48,830 nt of DNA from Corallococcus sp. AB045 (lineage in GTDB: Bacteria; Myxococcota; Myxococcia; Myxococcales; Myxococcaceae): the NCBI RefSeq assembly GCF_003668895.1, contig NZ_RAWN01000061.1, positions 1 through 48,830 of the forward strand, read 5' to 3'. The position numbers and the translations under genes were made by a program. Of this stretch, positions 1 through 3,980 are shown in pieces. Positions within the stretch are counted from its first letter, which is position 1. Each line of letters opens with the position of its first letter. Below the pieces are notes generated by a model that ran no database searches, was not told the origin of the DNA, and saw only the letters and a program-made list of their open reading frames with translations.

Positions 1-65
1 GAGGGGGACCGCCTTGAGGTCCGGGGGCTTGGCGCGGGACGCCATGGCGGGGATGACGCGCTGAG

Positions 66-76
66 CTGTCCGACAG
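66..76. promoter_or_regulatory. 11-nt palindrome CTGTCCGACAG upstream of the first gene of the plus-strand operon. The same core sits inside the 27-bp palindromes of the 110-bp repeats at the operon's far end.
   Basis: Sequence read directly: tgagCTGTCCGACAGgaag at 62-80. The identical 11-mer occurs in each repeat unit at 19.5-19.8 kb (aacCTGTCCGACAGtcggacagg). A palindrome suggests a dimeric DNA-binding protein site. There is no experimental support. Confidence 0.3.
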
Positions 77-188
77 GAAGTTCGGGACCTCCGAGCCATG
101 CCTCGCCGTGGTGGGCCGACGGCCACCGCGTCAGGGCGGGCTCCCGTGGCCGCGACGCAAGGCTGTTCCTCGTGGAGGTGCGGACCCC

Positions 189-3100
189 ATGAGCCGGCCC
201 TCCCAGCGACTGATCCAGCTCCTCCCCGGCCTCTACACGGCGCGGGACTCCACGCTCGCGGACCAGCCGCTCCTCAAGCTGCTCGCCGTGCTGGGCATGG
301 AACTGGACGCGTTCGCGAGCGCGGTGGACCAGCTCTGGGATGATCACTTCGTGGAGCGTGCGGGCCCGCAGGCGCTGCCGTTGCTCGCGGAGTTGATGGG
401 CGCACGGCTGATCACCGACGACCCTCGCGTGCAGCGCGGCGTGGTGGCTCGCGCGGTGGCGTGGCGCAGACGGAAGGGCACGCTCGCGTCGCTGGAGGAG
501 GTGCTCTCCGTCACCAGCCTCTGGGACGCGGAGGTCGACGAGTCCTTCCGTTCGCTGCTGGAGACCCAGGACCTCAATGACCTGCTGCCCTGGCGCGGTC
601 GCAGCGCGGTGATGTGGGATCCCATCGGCCTCGCGGATCCGCTCACCCGCCGCTCACCTGGCATCGAGCGTCCCCGCGACGGTGTCCCGGAGCGTGGCCC
701 CTTCATTGGCATCGCGCCGGGAGAGACGCTGGATCAGGCCTTGCGCCGGTTGGGGAGCGCGGATGCGGGCCGTGTCGCCGCGACGCCGCGCACGCTGGAC
801 CTGCTGGGCTGGGCACGTCCGGACGTCGCCCTCATCCGCACCGCGCGCCTGACGCCCGTGGAGTTGGAGGACGTCACCCCAGCCACCGTGCAAGCGCTGC
901 CCAACGGCTACCGGGGTTTCCGCGTGGATCCCCTGGACCGCGATGGTCCCCTGGTGTGGCTCAAGCCCCTGGAGCGCGCGGACCTCACCGGAGGCCTCAC
1001 CGCGCGCCATGAGCCCGCGCCTCCGTCGCTCGCCACGGGACGCACGGCGGCGATGCTGCTCACCCCCACCGCGCTGGCCGAGGACGCCGACGCCGCCGAA
1101 CGCGCGGATGCCATCACCGTCTCCGTCGACGGCATTCCGCTGGTGGGGCCGGAAGCCCTGCCGCTCCTGCGCGGACCGCTGCCCACCGCGCCCGTGGGGC
1201 CCGCGCCCACGCTGCGGTTCGCGGACCGGGGCAGGCCTTCGCCCGGAGACACCTGGCGACTGACGCTGCTCGCCGCGCGTGAGAACTCGGACACGGTGCT
1301 CCTGTCCACCGAGCTGGTGTCGGACGCCCTGAACACCGTCACCGTCACGCCGGAGGCGAACCAGCTCCTGGGCGGCACCACGGCGGCGCTGCTCGTCGAA
1401 CGCGTGAGCGGTGAGCCGCGCCTGCGCGATGTGGACGGTACGTGGCGCACCCTCGCCGTGGGCCTGCGCCAGGGGCCTCCTCGCAGCAACGCCGTCCGTG
1501 TGGACCTGGCCGGTGCGCCATGGGTCGCGCGCATCGAGCAACACCTCGCGGACGGCAGCCTGCGCCTTGCCCGCTTCGACGCGAGCGCCGACGGTGCGCC
1601 ATGGCAGGTGGTGGAGCTCAGCGGCGCGTTGCCTCCGGAGGGTCCCGGCATGTCCCTGGCCGCGGCTGGCGACTCGCTGTTGCTGGTGGCACCTGACGGT
1701 ACGGGGAAGCTGGGCGTGTGGTCGGTGACAGGCGTGGACACCGCGACTCCGACGGGGACGCGGCTGGACACCGCGAGCCCTCGGCAGCCCGCGGCGCGAC
1801 TGGCCCCCAGCCTGTGCGTGCGCGGCGGCCGGCTCTTCGTCTTCGGCGGTGACCTGGGTGGCGCGCCCACCGGAGACCTCTGGTCGCTGCCGGTCACGGG
1901 CGGACCGTGGCGTCCCCATGCGGTGCGCAACCGCCAGGAGCGCAAGGCCGCGACGCTGCTGAGCACGGCGCAAGGACTGATGCTCCTGGGCGGCGAGGCC
2001 GTGACGGGAGAACTGGCCGTGCCGGTGATGTCCTGCGACCCGGCCTCCGCGAGCCCTGTCTGGCGTTCCCTGGCCCCGCTGCCCATCACCGCGAACCTGC
2101 CCGGCACGCTCGTGGCCACCACCACCGCCGACGGCGTGGAGGCGCTCGTCTGGGCGGACACGACGCGTCCTCAATGGATGACGCTGAAGGCAGGCGAGGG
2201 TGCCTGGGTCGCGGGACTGCTGGAGCCCTCGGGCTCGAACCCGCCGGTTCCGGGTGAAGCGCTGTACGTCGATGGTCGCGTGCTCCTCGTGGATCCGGCG
2301 CCGCTGCCCGCGTCGGAGGTCGTCTTCTCACTGGGTGGGCGCGGCTACCTGGCGTTCCTGCCAGAGCTGGCCCTGCTCCCGGATGAGCTCCTGCGCTTCA
2401 ACGTCGCCAACGACGGCGCCGCGTTCATCGAGCCTCGCGAGGGCCAGCCGCTCCCGCTCGATTCCCGGCCCGGTGGCGCGTACCACTCGCGGGATGCCTC
2501 CGTCGCAGGTGGCGCGCGGCGCTACTCGGTGCCAGGACGGCTGCGGCGCCATCCGTTCCAGTTGCGCCAGCGAAGCCTGGGCCCGTGGACGACGCTCGCT
2601 CCGAGCATCGCCTCCGGCATCGTCGCGGTGGATCCGCGCCTGGGCCGCGTCGTGCTCCAGGACGACGCGCCCGTGGGCCGCGTCACCCTCTCCGCGCGGG
2701 TAGGGCGGGGCGCCTCATTGGGAGCGGGGCTGCTTCCGCCGGACCGCCGTCCGCCCGCGGCGTGGGCGGAGCCGGACTTCCCATTCATCGACCCACCGGA
2801 CCGTCCTGGCGACCGCTCCAGCACCGGCCTTCCTGTCACCGCGTGGATCTCCCCGGAGCGCGCGGGCGGAGTGCTGGCGGCCGGAGGCCAGGAGCGGCCC
2901 ATCGTCGCGACCATCGAGCAAGGTCTCGACTCCGGCGCGTCCGTGGTGCTGGCGACTGGAGGCCAGGCGCGACCCATCGGCTCGGTCGGCGCACAAGGTC
3001 TCGACTCCGGCGCGTCCGTGGTGCTGGCGACTGAAGGTCAGGTGCCGCCGGATATCGCGAACCTCGCAGAAGAGAGCCCATCCGGATCGCCGCCGATTCT

Positions 3101-3980
3101 GGGCCTCATCGGTTCGCCGCGTCTGGCTCCGGAGCGCCTGTCACAGGGGCTGGACTACGGGCTGTCCCTCTTCGCCGCGGACACGGGCGCGGTGCCCTGC
3201 ATCGGCGCGGACGAGCACGGCCTCTCGCTGGCGCTCTACCCGGGCTTCGGAGGCAGCGCGGCCACGCGTGTGTGGCTCGCGGGCCTGTGGCTCGCGGGAC
3301 GGCTGGACCTGGTGCTCGCTCGGGGACAAGCGGACCTGCGCTGGTGCAACCTGGGCGCGCCCGGACAGGTGGGACTGTGGATGCCCGGCGGTGGGCACCA
3401 GGACATCAGCGCGCGGCGCTCCCTGCCTCCCGCTGATGTGGAGCTGCGCCTCTACGGCTGCATGGTGGGCGCCATCGAGCTGCCGCCCTGGGTGCACCTC
3501 ATCGCCGCGGGCTGCACCTTCGACGCGGGGGACCGTGACGCCGTCGCCATCCGCGCGGCGGGCGCGAGCGTTCGGCTGCGGCACTGCACGGTGCTGGGCG
3601 CCACGGAGGCGGGCGTGCTGGAGGCGTCCTCCTGCGCCTTCGCGGGCGAGGTGCGCACGGACAGGCCGGACCTGGGCTGGCTGCGCTACAGCCTTCTCGC
3701 GCGCGGTGGACAGCCTCCGGTGTCGCACCAGTCGCGGGTGCACACCGTGTCCTTCCAGTCGAACCGCCAGACGGACCCGAGCTACCTCGTCCTGGGCGAC
3801 AACAACGGCCCCGAAGCGCTCCACGCCTCCGAGCGCGGCGGAGTCCCCGGTGCCCACGACGAGCGCTCCAACCACGAGCGCGAACTCCAGGCGCGCACCG
3901 ACGACAGCATGCCCATTGGCATCACGCCCTTCCACGCCGACCGCAGCCAGGACGACCTCGTCCGGATGAGCCGACCATGA
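189..3980 (+). CDS. Baseplate wedge-like protein (1263 aa). The N-terminal domain resembles phage P2 tail protein I (gpI family), fused to Kelch-type beta-propeller repeats and a long C-terminal region. Alternative upstream start at 108.
   Basis: ORF 108..3980. An internal ATG at 189 has GGAGGTG 8 nt upstream, so it is preferred. The N-terminus (LLPGLY...LWDD...ALPLLAELMG...RGVVARAVAWRRRKGTLASLEEVL) matches from memory the conserved pattern of P2 gpI (LLP...LLPWLAW...KRAVIRDA..HCHKGTIGAIRRVV). The middle has Kelch-like repeats (LFVFGGDLGGAPTGDLWSL, LMLLGGEAVTGEL). The stop TGA overlaps the start of the next gene (ATGA). Confidence 0.7.
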   Translation: MSRPSQRLIQLLPGLYTARDSTLADQPLLKLLAVLGMELDAFASAVDQLWDDHFVERAGPQALPLLAELMGARLITDDPRVQRGVVARAVAWRRRKGTLASLEEVLSVTSLWDAEVDESFRSLLETQDLNDLLPWRGRSAVMWDPIGLADPLTRRSPGIERPRDGVPERGPFIGIAPGETLDQALRRLGSADAGRVAATPRTLDLLGWARPDVALIRTARLTPVELEDVTPATVQALPNGYRGFRVDPLDRDGPLVWLKPLERADLTGGLTARHEPAPPSLATGRTAAMLLTPTALAEDADAAERADAITVSVDGIPLVGPEALPLLRGPLPTAPVGPAPTLRFADRGRPSPGDTWRLTLLAARENSDTVLLSTELVSDALNTVTVTPEANQLLGGTTAALLVERVSGEPRLRDVDGTWRTLAVGLRQGPPRSNAVRVDLAGAPWVARIEQHLADGSLRLARFDASADGAPWQVVELSGALPPEGPGMSLAAAGDSLLLVAPDGTGKLGVWSVTGVDTATPTGTRLDTASPRQPAARLAPSLCVRGGRLFVFGGDLGGAPTGDLWSLPVTGGPWRPHAVRNRQERKAATLLSTAQGLMLLGGEAVTGELAVPVMSCDPASASPVWRSLAPLPITANLPGTLVATTTADGVEALVWADTTRPQWMTLKAGEGAWVAGLLEPSGSNPPVPGEALYVDGRVLLVDPAPLPASEVVFSLGGRGYLAFLPELALLPDELLRFNVANDGAAFIEPREGQPLPLDSRPGGAYHSRDASVAGGARRYSVPGRLRRHPFQLRQRSLGPWTTLAPSIASGIVAVDPRLGRVVLQDDAPVGRVTLSARVGRGASLGAGLLPPDRRPPAAWAEPDFPFIDPPDRPGDRSSTGLPVTAWISPERAGGVLAAGGQERPIVATIEQGLDSGASVVLATGGQARPIGSVGAQGLDSGASVVLATEGQVPPDIANLAEESPSGSPPILGLIGSPRLAPERLSQGLDYGLSLFAADTGAVPCIGADEHGLSLALYPGFGGSAATRVWLAGLWLAGRLDLVLARGQADLRWCNLGAPGQVGLWMPGGGHQDISARRSLPPADVELRLYGCMVGAIELPPWVHLIAAGCTFDAGDRDAVAIRAAGASVRLRHCTVLGATEAGVLEASSCAFAGEVRTDRPDLGWLRYSLLARGGQPPVSHQSRVHTVSFQSNRQTDPSYLVLGDNNGPEALHASERGGVPGAHDERSNHERELQARTDDSMPIGITPFHADRSQDDLVRMSRP
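2919..3049 (+). repeat. In-frame tandem duplication inside the gpI-like gene: 2 copies with a 75-bp period, encoding QGLDSGASVVLATxGQ twice.
   Basis: caaggtctcgactccggcgcgtccgtggtgctggcgactg occurs at 2919 and again at 2994. The first 40 nt are identical and the similarity then decays. Confidence 0.8.

What the first reader, a model, noticed from the sequence alone, without database searches (positions are those of the whole stretch)
62..80. Same palindromic core (CTGTCCGACAG) at the 5' end of the operon and in the 3' repeat array
The 11-nt palindrome 30 nt upstream of the first ORF start is identical to the core of the 27-bp palindromes at 19.5-19.8 kb. Chance occurrence of a specific 11-mer in about 100 kb of search space is on the order of a few percent. 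Bracketing the operon suggests a common DNA-binding regulator or RNA element acting at both ends.
Basis: seen in the sequence. Interest (0 to 1): 0.5.

Follow-up and report, generated by a model that had tools for sequence, protein, structure and literature searches.

The report
Genus-wide extragenic palindrome repeat, FadR-type
The 11-base motif is one box of a palindromic repeat found in over a hundred copies between genes in Corallococcus genomes, so it is not a control element specific to this phage-tail-like locus, although it looks like the binding site of a greatly expanded family of FadR/GntR regulators.

Summary
The sequence observation holds: CTGTCCGACAG occurs at 66-76 and once in each unit of a 3 x 110-bp tandem array (19491-19820). 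Within the window this is weak evidence. Some 11-mer of the 27-bp palindrome recurs by chance in 38% of randomisations.

The "operon bracket" reading fails.
- The window starts inside a contractile-injection-system (eCIS) operon.
- The site lies in an internal 380-815-bp spacer, which holds 2-5 full palindrome copies in every ortholog examined.
- The array lies between two convergent eCIS operons.
- Copy number at the orthologous positions varies from 0 to 5.

The 27-mer AAACCTGTCCGAC-W-GTCGGACAGGTTT is a dispersed repeat in Corallococcus: at least 114 copies in one genome, and about 90% of copies are extragenic. It occurs singly or in head-to-tail arrays.

Its conservation pattern matches two overlapping FadR-type boxes (GTC-N-GAC). 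It shows no hairpin covariation. All 24 examined members of a Corallococcus-specific FadR/GntR paralog family carry a copy about 80 nt (or about 50 nt) upstream of their start codon.

Best reading: this is a REP-like repeat family that doubles as the operator of these regulators. Binding is inferred, not shown. The lone box at 66-76 is probably (about 70%) a degenerate family member.

The parts
66..76 (.). Lone box CTGTCCGACAG. The extended 17-bp frame 63-79, GAGCTGTCCGACAGGAA, matches the perfect 17-bp palindrome AACCTGTCCGACAGGTT at 13 of 17 positions. It is a single FadR-type GTC-N-GAC box and probably a degenerate member of the repeat family.
   Evidence: Searches give the sequence. Searches show no significant extended similarity; the box is identical in AB011P, reads CTGTTCGACAG in C. 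coralloides DSM 2259, and the roughly 100-nt segment that carries it is absent in C. exiguus and C. interemptor; partial copies cluster next to full copies, including the recurrent internal-deletion form CCTGTCCGACAGGTTT.
1..188 (+). The 3' part of a long internal spacer of the eCIS operon. The spacer is about 490 nt in the nearest relative and lies between an 833-aa baseplate-region gene and the Tail_P2_I-like gene. By comparison with AB011P, the window starts about 20 nt after the last full palindrome copy.
   Evidence: All other gene junctions in the operon overlap or are tight. Only this spacer (380-815 nt) varies, and it varies with the number of repeat units. The frame-1 ORF that is open over 1-192 is spurious: the orthologous upstream gene stops about 490 nt before the ATG.
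189..3980 (+). Tail_P2_I-like / Kelch-repeat baseplate gene (1263 aa), the first complete gene of the window.
   Evidence: PF09684. P0001 is 99% identical at 1263 aa..
19226..19447 (+). Last gene (73 aa) of the + strand eCIS operon. Its stop codon lies 44 nt before the array.
   Evidence: It is conserved with the C. exiguus gene call.
19491..19820 (+). Head-to-tail array of three 110-bp units at 19491-19600, 19601-19710 and 19711-19820. Each unit holds the 27-bp palindrome plus a second 10-bp-stem inverted repeat (GAGGAGCTTC...GAAGCTCCTC).
   Evidence: nhmmer E = 1e-13 against the family profile. C. exiguus has one orthologous unit, so the array arose by local tandem duplication.
19524..19550 (.). 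27-bp palindrome, copy 1 (two overlapping GTC-N-GAC boxes).
   Evidence: 12-bp stem, -19 kcal/mol.
19634..19660 (.). 27-bp palindrome, copy 2.
19744..19770 (.). 27-bp palindrome, copy 3.
19879..21393 (-). FGE-sulfatase-like gene, the last gene of the convergent minus-strand operon. That operon also encodes a 2713-aa annexin-repeat protein and an AAA+ ATPase with a Pvc16_N region. The array therefore lies between two convergent operons of one eCIS locus.

Best explanation
The motif is the core box of a dispersed, extragenic palindromic repeat family specific to Corallococcus and a few close Myxococcaceae.

The conserved part is the 27-bp palindrome AAACCTGTCCGAC-(A/T)-GTCGGACAGGTTT. It sits in asymmetric units of about 70-150 bp. 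These units occur singly or as head-to-tail tandem arrays of up to 13 copies in all kinds of intergenic gaps.

In this locus, units have settled in the two sizeable non-coding gaps of an eCIS gene cluster.
- One is the internal spacer in front of the Tail_P2_I-like gene. Its full copies lie just outside the window. The box at 66-76 is a lone, probably degenerate, copy.
- The other is the gap between the two convergent operons, where one ancestral unit was tandemly triplicated.

Copy number changes quickly between species and strains, by slippage or unequal exchange.

Shown: repetition, extragenic location, turnover at orthologous sites, the position-specific conservation pattern, and the fixed association with FadR/GntR paralog genes.

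Inferred: the palindrome is kept intact because it is the operator of that expanded FadR-like regulator family. It would consist of two overlapping GTM-N-KAC boxes 8 bp apart. Each paralog would autoregulate through the copy about 80 nt upstream of its start. The many extragenic copies would be additional binding sites of the same proteins. Any effect on the eCIS genes would be a by-product of this genome-wide system, not a dedicated switch.
For: Dispersal
- There are 300 copies with up to 7 mismatches to the 27-mer in those loci.
- C. exercitus SDU142 has at least 114 copies at 38 or more loci, a lower bound.

Extragenic location
- 10.6% of copies lie in a coding mask that covers 78% of the sequence.
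- Copies occur in convergent, tandem and divergent gaps: 26/40/16 against a baseline of 119/284/89.

Arrays
- Period modes are 69-73, 92 and about 138 nt, with runs of up to 13 copies.
- Flank orientation is the same within an array.

Turnover at this locus
- The upstream spacer holds 2 copies (AB011P), 4 and 3 (two C. exiguus strains), 5 (DSM 2259) and 3 (C. interemptor).
- The 3' gap holds 3 copies (window), 1 (C. exiguus), 1 variant copy (C. exercitus) and 0 (C. interemptor, C. macrosporus).

Protein-site signature
- GTC/GAC triplets are 94-99% conserved (only position 13 falls below 97%).
- The variable positions are the N of each GTC-N-GAC (positions 10 and 18), the K position (6/22, T to G) and the centre (A 144 : T 151).
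- Mismatches are one-sided, not compensatory: 64 against 4 at pair 6-22, and 46 against 2 at pair 10-18.
- This matches the FadR-subfamily consensus GTM-N0-1-KAC with TKGT/ACMA boxes, 3-nt GT..AC spacing and frequent extra half-sites 7-12 nt away (PMC4494728).
- It also resembles E. coli FadR sites such as ATCTGGTACGACCAGAT and AGCTGGTCCGACC (PMC4259882).

Gene association
- 23 of the 120 loci carry a FadR/GntR paralog (PF00392, E = 2e-13). About 1.6% would be expected, an estimate assuming about 20 paralogs in a 10-Mb genome.
- In all 23, a copy is centred 77-83 nt or 49-52 nt upstream of the ATG (62 nt for one paralog whose start was only approximated).
- In three of them the proximal copy is a variant that did not cause the ascertainment.
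- One paralog fetched independently of the palindrome (DSM 2259, L130) has four copies upstream, the last 81 nt before its ATG.
- The palindrome is the best conserved upstream block among 9 paralogs.

The regulator family
- It gives 363 clusters. The best 120 are all at least 70% identical, and every one that carries a source name is Corallococcus (a few are unnamed metagenome sequences). More than a dozen distinct paralogs lie on one chromosome.
- It aligns with E. coli FadR over both domains, with R45, T47 and R49 conserved.

Negative control
- None of 80 metagenome loci with distant GntR genes carries the palindrome or the 11-mer.

No other gene family recurs next to the copies: at most 2 of 102 neighbouring ORFs share a family.
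Against: - No binding experiment exists. The link to the FadR-like proteins is correlative.
- That link is partly explained by gene duplication carrying the upstream region along.
- The 23 paralog loci were ascertained through an exact 21-mer somewhere in the 8-kb block. Only four observations are free of that bias.
- 26 of 82 occupied gaps are convergent and have no promoter to regulate. Most copies therefore cannot be classical operators.
- How the units spread is unexplained, because GntR proteins have no transposition chemistry.
- 16 loci from MAG MFD05674 carry the palindrome with different flanks and no paralog nearby.
- For the site at 66-76, no statistic from the sequence itself separates it from chance. 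Its core is also not conserved in DSM 2259 (CTGTTCGACAG).
- The genome scan was truncated, so copy numbers and taxonomic range are lower bounds.
Confidence: 0.7

Rival explanations
1. A locus-specific cis element (operator or RNA structure) at both ends of the tail-like operon co-ordinates its expression through one dedicated regulator.
For: The same 11-mer occurs in the two largest non-coding gaps of the + strand gene set. Full copies also occur in the upstream spacer of every ortholog examined.
Against: - The sites do not bracket the operon.
- The element has at least 114 copies in one genome, and only 1 of 120 sampled loci is a tail-like locus.
- Copy number is 0-5 at orthologous positions, and two species lack it entirely at the 3' gap.
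- The lone box is mutated in its core in DSM 2259 and absent in C. exiguus and C. interemptor.
Confidence: 0.04
2. The match at 66-76 is a coincidence. The array is a member of the repeat family, but the lone 11-mer is unrelated sequence.
For: - Some 11-mer of the 27-mer is shared with the rest of the window in 38% of randomisations, and a second such match lies inside a gene at 25142.
- Profile E = 2.1.
- The flanks carry no extra similarity, p = 0.75.
- The site does not fold.
- Its core is not conserved in DSM 2259.
Against: - It lies about 100 nt from a full copy in the same spacer.
- Partial matches are 15-25 times enriched within 250 nt of full copies. Even core-only matches are enriched about 4-fold; that figure is a hand count from the site lists.
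- The 12-mer CTGTCCGACAGG is exactly what an 8-nt slippage deletion between the GACAG direct repeats leaves. That derivative recurs at L026, L038, L081 and L101.
- The segment that carries it is an indel relative to C. exiguus, of unit-like length.
Confidence: 0.3
3. It is a classical REP/REPIN-type or MITE-type mobile element. The palindrome is the hairpin recognised by a transposase (for example a RAYT) that copies the units. The FadR-like genes merely inherited a copy in their upstream region when they duplicated.
For: - High copy number, extragenic location, strong hairpin (-19 kcal/mol, z = -4.2), presence/absence polymorphism and clustering.
- One orthologous copy carries symmetric arm changes: AACTGGTCCGAC-T-GTCGGACCAGTT in C. 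exercitus.
- The MAG variant is embedded in a longer inverted repeat, which is MITE-like.
Against: - There is no conserved GT(A/G)G head, and the arrays are head-to-tail rather than alternating as in BIMEs.
- Compensatory changes are rare overall, and variation sits at the degenerate positions of a FadR box.
- No transposase-like family recurs among 102 neighbouring ORFs, though the sample is truncated.
- The exact palindrome is retained at a fixed distance in paralogs that are only 65-70% identical in protein. Simple hitch-hiking does not predict this.
Confidence: 0.22
4. The units act at the RNA level, as 3' hairpins that terminate transcription or protect upstream mRNA from exonucleases (as E. 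coli REPs do). That would set the ratio of expression upstream and downstream of the spacer and insulate the two convergent operons.
For: - Stable hairpins form on both strands, flanked by A3/T3, and the units fold better than shuffles, z = -2.6 and -2.9.
- The positions fit: after the last gene of an operon and between co-directional genes.
- There is a slight excess in convergent gaps, 32% against 24%.
Against: - There is no U-tract and no terminator-like call, and no Rfam family matches.
- There is no covariation.
- 20% of occupied gaps are divergent, and copies sit upstream of 24 of 24 paralog genes.
- This does not exclude the DNA-binding model, and both may hold.
Confidence: 0.2

Closest known systems
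REP / BIME elements of Enterobacteria, Pseudomonas and Xanthomonas (RAYT-associated repetitive extragenic palindromes)
   Same: Both are short palindromes present in over 100 copies per genome and overwhelmingly extragenic. Both occur singly or in clusters, both inside operons and between convergent genes. Copy number differs between strains. Classical REPs are also known to serve as protein-binding sites (PMC2817692).
   Different: This palindrome is perfect, not imperfect, and has no GT(A/G)G head. Its arrays are head-to-tail tandem duplications of 70-150-bp units rather than alternating REPs. No RAYT was found nearby. The only recurrent neighbouring gene is a FadR/GntR regulator.
FadR-subfamily GntR operators (E. 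coli FadR sites such as fadBA ATCTGGTACGACCAGAT; consensus GTM-N0-1-KAC with TKGT/ACMA boxes)
   Same: The core is GTC-N-GAC with 3-nt GT..AC spacing. The central N and the K position are degenerate. A second box lies 8 nt from the first. A copy lies upstream of the regulator's own gene. The internal-deletion derivative AACCTGTCCGACAGGTT is a 17-bp palindrome with the same architecture as a FadR site.
   Different: Ordinary operators occur a few times per genome at promoters. This one occurs in hundreds of copies, in tandem arrays and in promoter-less convergent gaps. The cognate candidate is not one regulator but a family of more than a dozen paralogs per genome, with variable low-complexity tails. 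Binding is untested.
Bacterial MITEs carrying protein-binding sites (for example Neisseria Correia elements or enterobacterial ERIC/IRU; comparison from general knowledge)
   Same: They are small, structured, non-coding repeats in intergenic DNA that can influence neighbouring genes.
   Different: No terminal inverted repeats plus target-site duplication were defined here. Growth appears to be mainly by local tandem duplication.
CRISPR arrays
   Same: Both show a regularly spaced palindromic repeat of about 25 nt with a period of about 70 nt.
   Different: The inter-repeat segments are homologous to each other: whole 110-bp units are 97% identical. There are no cas genes nearby, and copies are scattered at more than 100 loci.

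Membership tests
REP/BIME (RAYT-associated repetitive extragenic palindromes) | A short palindromic sequence in high copy number (over 100 per genome), predominantly extragenic | tested here: met
   C. exercitus SDU142 has at least 114 copies, a lower bound because the scan was truncated. 10.6% of copies lie in a coding mask that covers 78% of the sequence.
REP/BIME (RAYT-associated repetitive extragenic palindromes) | A conserved GT(A/G)G tetranucleotide at the 5' end of an imperfect palindrome | tested here: not met
   The consensus of 147 oriented copies is ..gCcGCggaAACCTGTCCGAC-W-GTCGGACAGGTTTGGAg.. It has no GTAG/GTGG head, and the palindrome is perfect. The definition is from PMC2817692.
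REP/BIME (RAYT-associated repetitive extragenic palindromes) | Clusters (BIMEs) with REPs in alternating orientation | tested here: not met
   All units within an array share one flank orientation, for example L034, L033, L017 and the window array. Whole units repeat head to tail.
REP/BIME (RAYT-associated repetitive extragenic palindromes) | A RAYT (Y1/HUH transposase) gene flanked by the REPs | tested here: inconclusive
   A Pfam scan of 102 ORFs within 500 nt of copies showed no recurrent family and no transposase among the families listed. However, only 120 loci were sampled and only the top 25 families were displayed.
FadR-subfamily (GntR family) operator | A palindrome of the form NyGTM-N0-1-KACNy with 3-nt GT..AC spacing and TKGT/ACMA boxes | tested here: met
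   Each arm is GTCCGAC or GTCGGAC. GTC and GAC are 94-99% conserved (only position 13 falls below 97%), while the N and K positions vary. The consensus is from PMC4494728, and E. coli sites are from PMC4259882.
FadR-subfamily (GntR family) operator | Located in the upstream region of the regulator gene or its targets | tested here: met
   In 23 of 23 paralogs in the sampled loci, and in 1 of 1 fetched independently, a copy is centred 77-83 nt or 49-52 nt upstream of the start codon (62 nt for one paralog whose start was only approximated).
FadR-subfamily (GntR family) operator | Specific binding by the cognate regulator dimer | not testable with these tools
   This needs EMSA, footprinting or ChIP. 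What is shown is only that the candidate protein is FadR-like over both domains and keeps the equivalents of FadR R45, T47 and R49.
Intrinsic (Rho-independent) terminator | A G+C-rich hairpin followed by a U-tract | tested here: not met
   The hairpin is present (12 bp, -19 kcal/mol), but only TTT follows it. No terminator-like sites were called in 19300-20000.
CRISPR array | Identical repeats separated by unique spacers, usually with cas genes | tested here: not met
   Whole 110-bp units are 97% identical, 'spacers' included. Spacers in other arrays are diverged copies of one another. No cas domains occur in the window genes.
Known RNA families (Rfam 15) | A match at the gathering threshold | tested here: not met
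   There are no matches in the whole window.
Extracellular contractile injection system (eCIS) locus (context of the finding) | Tube, gp25-like, baseplate (P2_I-like), spike (VgrG/gp5-like) and AAA+ ATPase with Pvc16-like genes in one cluster | tested here: met
   The cluster contains PF19266 CIS_tube and PF04965 GPW_gp25 upstream in L121. It contains PF09684, PF04717 and PF22178 in the window. It contains AAA plus Pvc16_N at 30888-33329. No sheath gene was seen in the stretch examined.

The most novel reading that the evidence does not exclude
A regulator-operator pair has been co-amplified in one genus. A FadR/GntR-type regulator gene, together with its own palindromic operator, expanded to more than a dozen paralogs per Corallococcus genome. 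The operator also escaped as a REP-like repeat and multiplied to hundreds of extragenic copies and tandem arrays. The paralogs, which differ mainly in their low-complexity C-terminal tails, would then form a genome-wide DNA-binding network. That network could act as a decoy or titration system, in chromosome organisation, or as a roadblock. It would touch many loci, including this eCIS cluster. This would be a REP-like family whose partner protein is a transcription factor rather than a transposase.
Probability: 0.35. Interest if true: 0.75.

Novelty: new variant of a known kind. Interest (0 to 1): 0.45.

Why it matters
For the eCIS locus the result is deflationary. The motif is not a dedicated switch, and annotation of such loci in Corallococcus should treat these gaps as repeat insertions.

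The repeat family itself was not found described in the searchable literature. Searches on Corallococcus/Myxococcus with REP, REPIN/RAYT, MITE and GntR terms found nothing relevant.

The family has an unusual property. Its conserved positions are those of a FadR-type operator, and its only recurrent neighbour is a lineage-specific, highly expanded FadR/GntR paralog family. If binding is confirmed, this gives a tractable case of how a transcription-factor site turns into a dispersed genomic repeat, or the reverse. It would also show what REP-like elements can be for when no RAYT is involved.

In practice, the arrays are hypervariable markers between closely related strains. C. exiguus strains differ by one 69-bp unit.

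Tried and rejected
- Coding hypothesis for 66-76. Frame 1 is open from 1 to 192 and ends in an ATGA overlap with ATG 189, which looked like translational coupling. It was rejected because the orthologous upstream gene stops about 490 nt earlier in AB011P and the spacer is non-coding in all orthologs.
- Rfam at gathering thresholds gave nothing.
- Consensus promoter and terminator scans at the array, at window 1-260 and upstream of a paralog gave nothing. They are uninformative at 70% G+C.
- An nhmmer family profile against the window found only the three array copies as significant.
- My hand alignment of window 62-88 to a unit with an 8-nt deletion looked persuasive but failed a flank-shuffle test, so it is not used as evidence.
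- The CRISPR reading was rejected because the spacers are homologous.
- A phage or plasmid origin is unsupported: no exact core matches in IMG/VR contigs and no blastn hit in PLSDB.
- Exact-protein look-ups with the window's own proteins found nothing on record, so the source genome itself is not in that index. Two paralog look-ups also failed.
- The metagenome scan for close relatives of the FadR-like family returned only distant GntR genes (25-47% identity). It served as a negative control and not as the independent test I wanted.
- An MrpC/CRP-type site (GTGTC-N8-GACAC, from memory) was considered. The spacing here is N9, the flanks differ, and no such regulator gene is associated. It was not pursued.
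- The literature held no description of 'Mx-rep' or of Corallococcus repeats.
Full report
**1. The observation**

CTGTCCGACAG occurs four times in the window: at 66-76 and at 19528, 19638 and 19748. The last three sit inside perfect 27-bp palindromes AAACCTGTCCGACAGTCGGACAGGTTT. Each palindrome belongs to one unit of a 110-bp x 3 head-to-tail array at 19491-19820, 97% identical.

The specific 11-mer is expected 0.01 times by chance. The fair question is different: how often does any 11-mer of the 27-mer recur? That happens in 38% of order-1 Markov randomisations (mean 0.6). A second such match is present inside a gene at 25142.

The 66-76 site shares nothing more with the palindrome.
- It does not match the 27-mer with up to 3 mismatches.
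- It scores E = 2.1 against a profile of 147 family members, like chance half-sites inside genes.
- Its flanks are no more similar to repeat units than shuffled flanks.
- It does not form a notable hairpin, z = -0.45.

From the window alone, the match is not distinguishable from chance.

**2. Where the two sites really are**

The window (70% G+C) begins inside a contractile-injection-system (eCIS) cluster of a Corallococcus.

The first complete gene is a Tail_P2_I/Kelch protein. Its start is ATG 189, not the GTG at 108. The 99%-identical ortholog in Corallococcus sp. AB011P is 1263 aa.

In AB011P, C. exiguus and C. coralloides the same strand carries tube (PF19266), gp25 (PF04965), a 1255-aa gene and an 833-841-aa gene upstream. 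All are tightly overlapping, except for a 380-815-nt gap directly in front of the P2_I gene. The site at 66-76 lies in that internal gap, so it is not at the operon's 5' end. An apparent coding frame across 1-192 is spurious.

Downstream, the + operon ends with a 73-aa gene at 19226-19447.

The array follows. Then comes the end of a convergent minus-strand operon (19879-33329). That operon encodes an FGE-like protein, a 2713-aa annexin-repeat protein and an AAA+ ATPase with a Pvc16_N region. The array is therefore in the middle of the eCIS locus, between two convergent operons.

**3. The palindrome is a genus-wide dispersed repeat**

A scan of one genome per species for CCTGTCCGACNGTCGGACAGG stopped at its 120-locus limit. 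Nearly all hits are Corallococcus species. There are a few from a Myxococcaceae MAG, an Archangium MAG and Hyalangium, and 16 from one 'delta proteobacterium' MAG.

These 941 kb hold 162 exact cores and 300 copies with up to 7 mismatches. C. exercitus SDU142 alone has at least 114 copies at 38 or more loci, and these are lower bounds.

Only 10.6% of copies fall in a crude coding mask that covers 78% of the sequence.

Copies occupy convergent, co-directional and divergent gaps in roughly baseline proportions.

88 occurrences are solitary. The rest form head-to-tail arrays of 2-13 units, with period modes at 69-73, 92 and about 138 nt.

Asymmetric flanks (..CCGCACG/GCGGA-AACC...GGTT-TGGAGGACC..) define an orientation that is constant within arrays.

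There are no matches in IMG/VR viral contigs or PLSDB plasmids, and none in Rfam.

**4. Orthologous loci: rapid turnover**

The spacer before the P2_I gene contains:
- 2 copies in AB011P;
- 4 and 3 in two C. exiguus strains, which differ by one 69-bp unit;
- 5 in C. coralloides DSM 2259;
- 3 in C. interemptor.

Aligning AB011P shows that window position 1 lies about 20 nt after the last full copy. The lone box is about 100 nt downstream of that copy. It sits in a roughly 100-nt segment that is also present in DSM 2259, where the core reads CTGTTCGACAG. That segment is missing from C. exiguus and C. interemptor.

At the 3' gap:
- C. exiguus has one orthologous 110-bp-type unit;
- C. exercitus has one unit with symmetric arm changes (AACTGGTCCGAC-T-GTCGGACCAGTT);
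- C. interemptor and C. macrosporus have none, and carry other genes inserted there.

The window's array is therefore a local triplication.

**5. Is the lone box a family member?**

In the 120 loci, 11-mer fragments of the palindrome that lie outside full copies are 15-25 times denser within 250 nt of a full copy than elsewhere. Counted by overlapping 11-mers the densities are 0.59 against 0.023 per kb. Counted by distinct sites they are about 13 in 73 kb against about 10 in 860 kb.

Core-only fragments like the one here are still about 4-fold enriched. That figure is a hand count from the site lists.

A recurrent derivative, CCTGTCCGACAG|GTTT, is what an 8-nt slippage deletion between the two GACAG direct repeats produces. 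It occurs at L026, L038, L081 and L101. The window's CTGTCCGACAGG fits that form.

Given its position in a repeat-bearing spacer, I put about 70% on a degenerate family member and about 30% on coincidence. This is an inference from context and is not shown by the sequence itself.

**6. What the palindrome looks like functionally**

Position-specific conservation over 300 copies is highest at G7T8C9, G11A12, G15T16C17 and G19A20C21 (97-99%); C13, which completes the first GAC, is 94%. These are two GTC-N-GAC boxes, 8 bp apart.

The variable positions are the central N of each box (10 and 18), the position just outside the GT (6/22, T to G) and the centre (A 144 : T 151). The centre ratio is 73:73 in flank-oriented copies, which suggests a flip-flop.

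Mismatches are overwhelmingly one-sided: 64 against 4 compensatory at pair 6-22, and 46 against 2 at pair 10-18. A selected RNA or DNA hairpin would not give this pattern.

It matches the published FadR-subfamily operator consensus: GTM-N0-1-KAC, TKGT/ACMA boxes, GT..AC spacing of 3 nt and frequent extra half-sites 7-12 nt from the centre (PMC4494728). It also resembles E. coli FadR sites such as ATCTGGTACGACCAGAT and AGCTGGTCCGACC (PMC4259882).

Whether the perfect box is the left or the right one depends on the A/T centre.

**7. The recurrent neighbour**

Clustering of 692 ORFs from the 120 loci revealed one family that repeatedly abuts the palindrome. Its members carry a GntR wHTH domain (PF00392, E = 2e-13).

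They align with E. coli FadR across both domains: phmmer to 1e2x/1h9t gives E = 4e-4, and BLASTP gives 1e-8. The equivalents of FadR R45, T47 and R49 are invariant in 12 paralogs; R35 is Q and H65 is P.

tblastn finds a paralog in 23 of the 120 loci. About 1.6% would be expected, an estimate assuming about 20 paralogs in a 10-Mb genome.

In all 23, a palindrome is centred 77-83 nt upstream of the ATG, or 49-52 nt in one subgroup (62 nt for one paralog whose start was only approximated). This holds even for paralogs only 65-70% identical in protein. In three cases the proximal copy is a variant that did not cause the ascertainment.

The one paralog I could fetch independently of the palindrome (DSM 2259, L130) has four units upstream, the last centred 81 nt before its ATG.

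Among nine paralogs the palindrome is the best conserved upstream block.

The family is large and lineage-specific.
- It gives 363 clusters at E <= 1e-10.
- The best 120 are all at least 70% identical, and every one that carries a source name is Corallococcus (a few are unnamed metagenome sequences).
- More than a dozen distinct paralogs lie on the SDU142 chromosome, and several occur in AB011P.
- None is encoded in this window.

Eighty metagenome loci with distant GntR genes contain neither the palindrome nor the 11-mer.

Among 102 other ORFs within 500 nt of copies, no Pfam family recurs more than twice, and no transposase stands out.

**8. Mechanism**

Shown:
- a dispersed, extragenic, rapidly turning-over palindromic repeat;
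- a conservation pattern typical of a protein-binding site;
- a fixed association with FadR-like paralog genes.

Inferred:
- the FadR-like proteins bind the palindrome and autoregulate through the -80 copy;
- this recognition keeps hundreds of copies nearly identical across species;
- arrays grow and shrink by slippage or unequal exchange.

How units reach new gaps is unknown. Copies in promoter-less convergent gaps cannot be classical operators. They may be decoys, roadblocks, structural sites or simply selfish DNA. An RNA-level role as 3' hairpins is not excluded, but nothing tested supports it.

For the eCIS genes, any effect of the spacer units or of the array would be a side effect of this genome-wide system.

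**9. Comparison with known systems**

The family behaves like REP/BIME elements in copy number, extragenic location and clustering. It fails their defining features: the GT(A/G)G head and the alternating orientation. A RAYT association could not be established. I therefore do not file it as a REP in the strict sense.

It meets the sequence and position criteria of a FadR-subfamily operator, but binding is untested.

It is not a CRISPR array, an intrinsic terminator or an Rfam family.

I found no description of it in the searchable literature.

**10. Verdict**

- The sequence observation is correct.
- Its statistical weight within the window is low.
- The operon-bracket interpretation is wrong.
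- The underlying element is an apparently undescribed REP-like family.
- Its likely protein partner is an expanded FadR/GntR family.

As a finding about this locus it is ordinary. The regulator-repeat association is the part worth following up.

Noticed in passing
window 41214-43490 (+): A 758-aa protein gives strong matches to eukaryotic major vault protein domains: MVP_shoulder E = 5e-45, plus Vault, Vault_2, Vault_3 and Vault_4 repeats. It is a bacterial MVP homolog sitting about 8 kb from the eCIS cluster.
   Followed up: no
window 22715-30856 (-) and 30888-33329 (-): A 2713-aa protein with an annexin repeat (E = 1e-21) lies directly downstream of the eCIS-type AAA+ ATPase/Pvc16_N gene. 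This arrangement is conserved in four other Corallococcus species. It is a candidate eCIS cargo or effector.
   Followed up: no
L016, L053, L068, L070, L079, L087, L042, L045, L073, L090 (C. exercitus SDU142) and others; proteins P0171-P0290: A Corallococcus-specific FadR/GntR paralog family has more than a dozen copies per genome. Its members share a conserved 255-aa core and carry highly variable, acidic, low-complexity C-terminal tails with repeats such as DDALEARPCVEE. Each gene is preceded by the palindrome about 80 nt upstream.
   Followed up: partly
All family copies, e.g. window 19537, 19647 and 19757 (centre base): The central base of the palindrome is A or T at 1:1 (73:73) regardless of flank orientation, and almost never G or C. 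Likewise, the centre of each 7-nt sub-palindrome flips between C and G, giving direct-repeat variants such as GTCCGAC-T-GTCCGAC. This suggests strand-switch 'flip-flop' events within the palindrome.
   Followed up: partly
L007, L009, L014, L015, L020, L022, L027, L029, L047 (MAG MFD05674.bin.2.184): In this MAG the same 27-mer is embedded in a longer inverted repeat: CCTCCCGGGCGCG..TTTTGAAAA-palindrome-TTTTTGAAAA..CGCGCCCGGGAGG. This is MITE-like, with different flanks from Corallococcus. No FadR-like paralog occurs in the 16 sampled loci.
   Followed up: no
window 2860-3084 (+), inside the P2_I-like gene: An in-frame 75-bp tandem repeat of about 3 copies (79-85% identical) lies in the C-terminal half of the baseplate protein. 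Orthologs differ in length (1213-1282 aa), possibly because of this repeat.
   Followed up: no
L127 7805-9388 and L129 7644-8579 (orthologs of window gap 19448-19878): C. interemptor and C. macrosporus have an extra gene (527 aa and 311 aa, respectively) in the convergent gap, in place of the repeat unit. This gap is therefore a hotspot for insertions of different kinds.
   Followed up: no
window 19551-19600 and equivalents in each unit: Each 110-bp unit carries a second strong inverted repeat next to the palindrome: GAGGAGCTTC..GAAGCTCCTC, a 10-bp stem around a roughly 24-nt loop. Its sequence is not conserved across the family.
   Followed up: no
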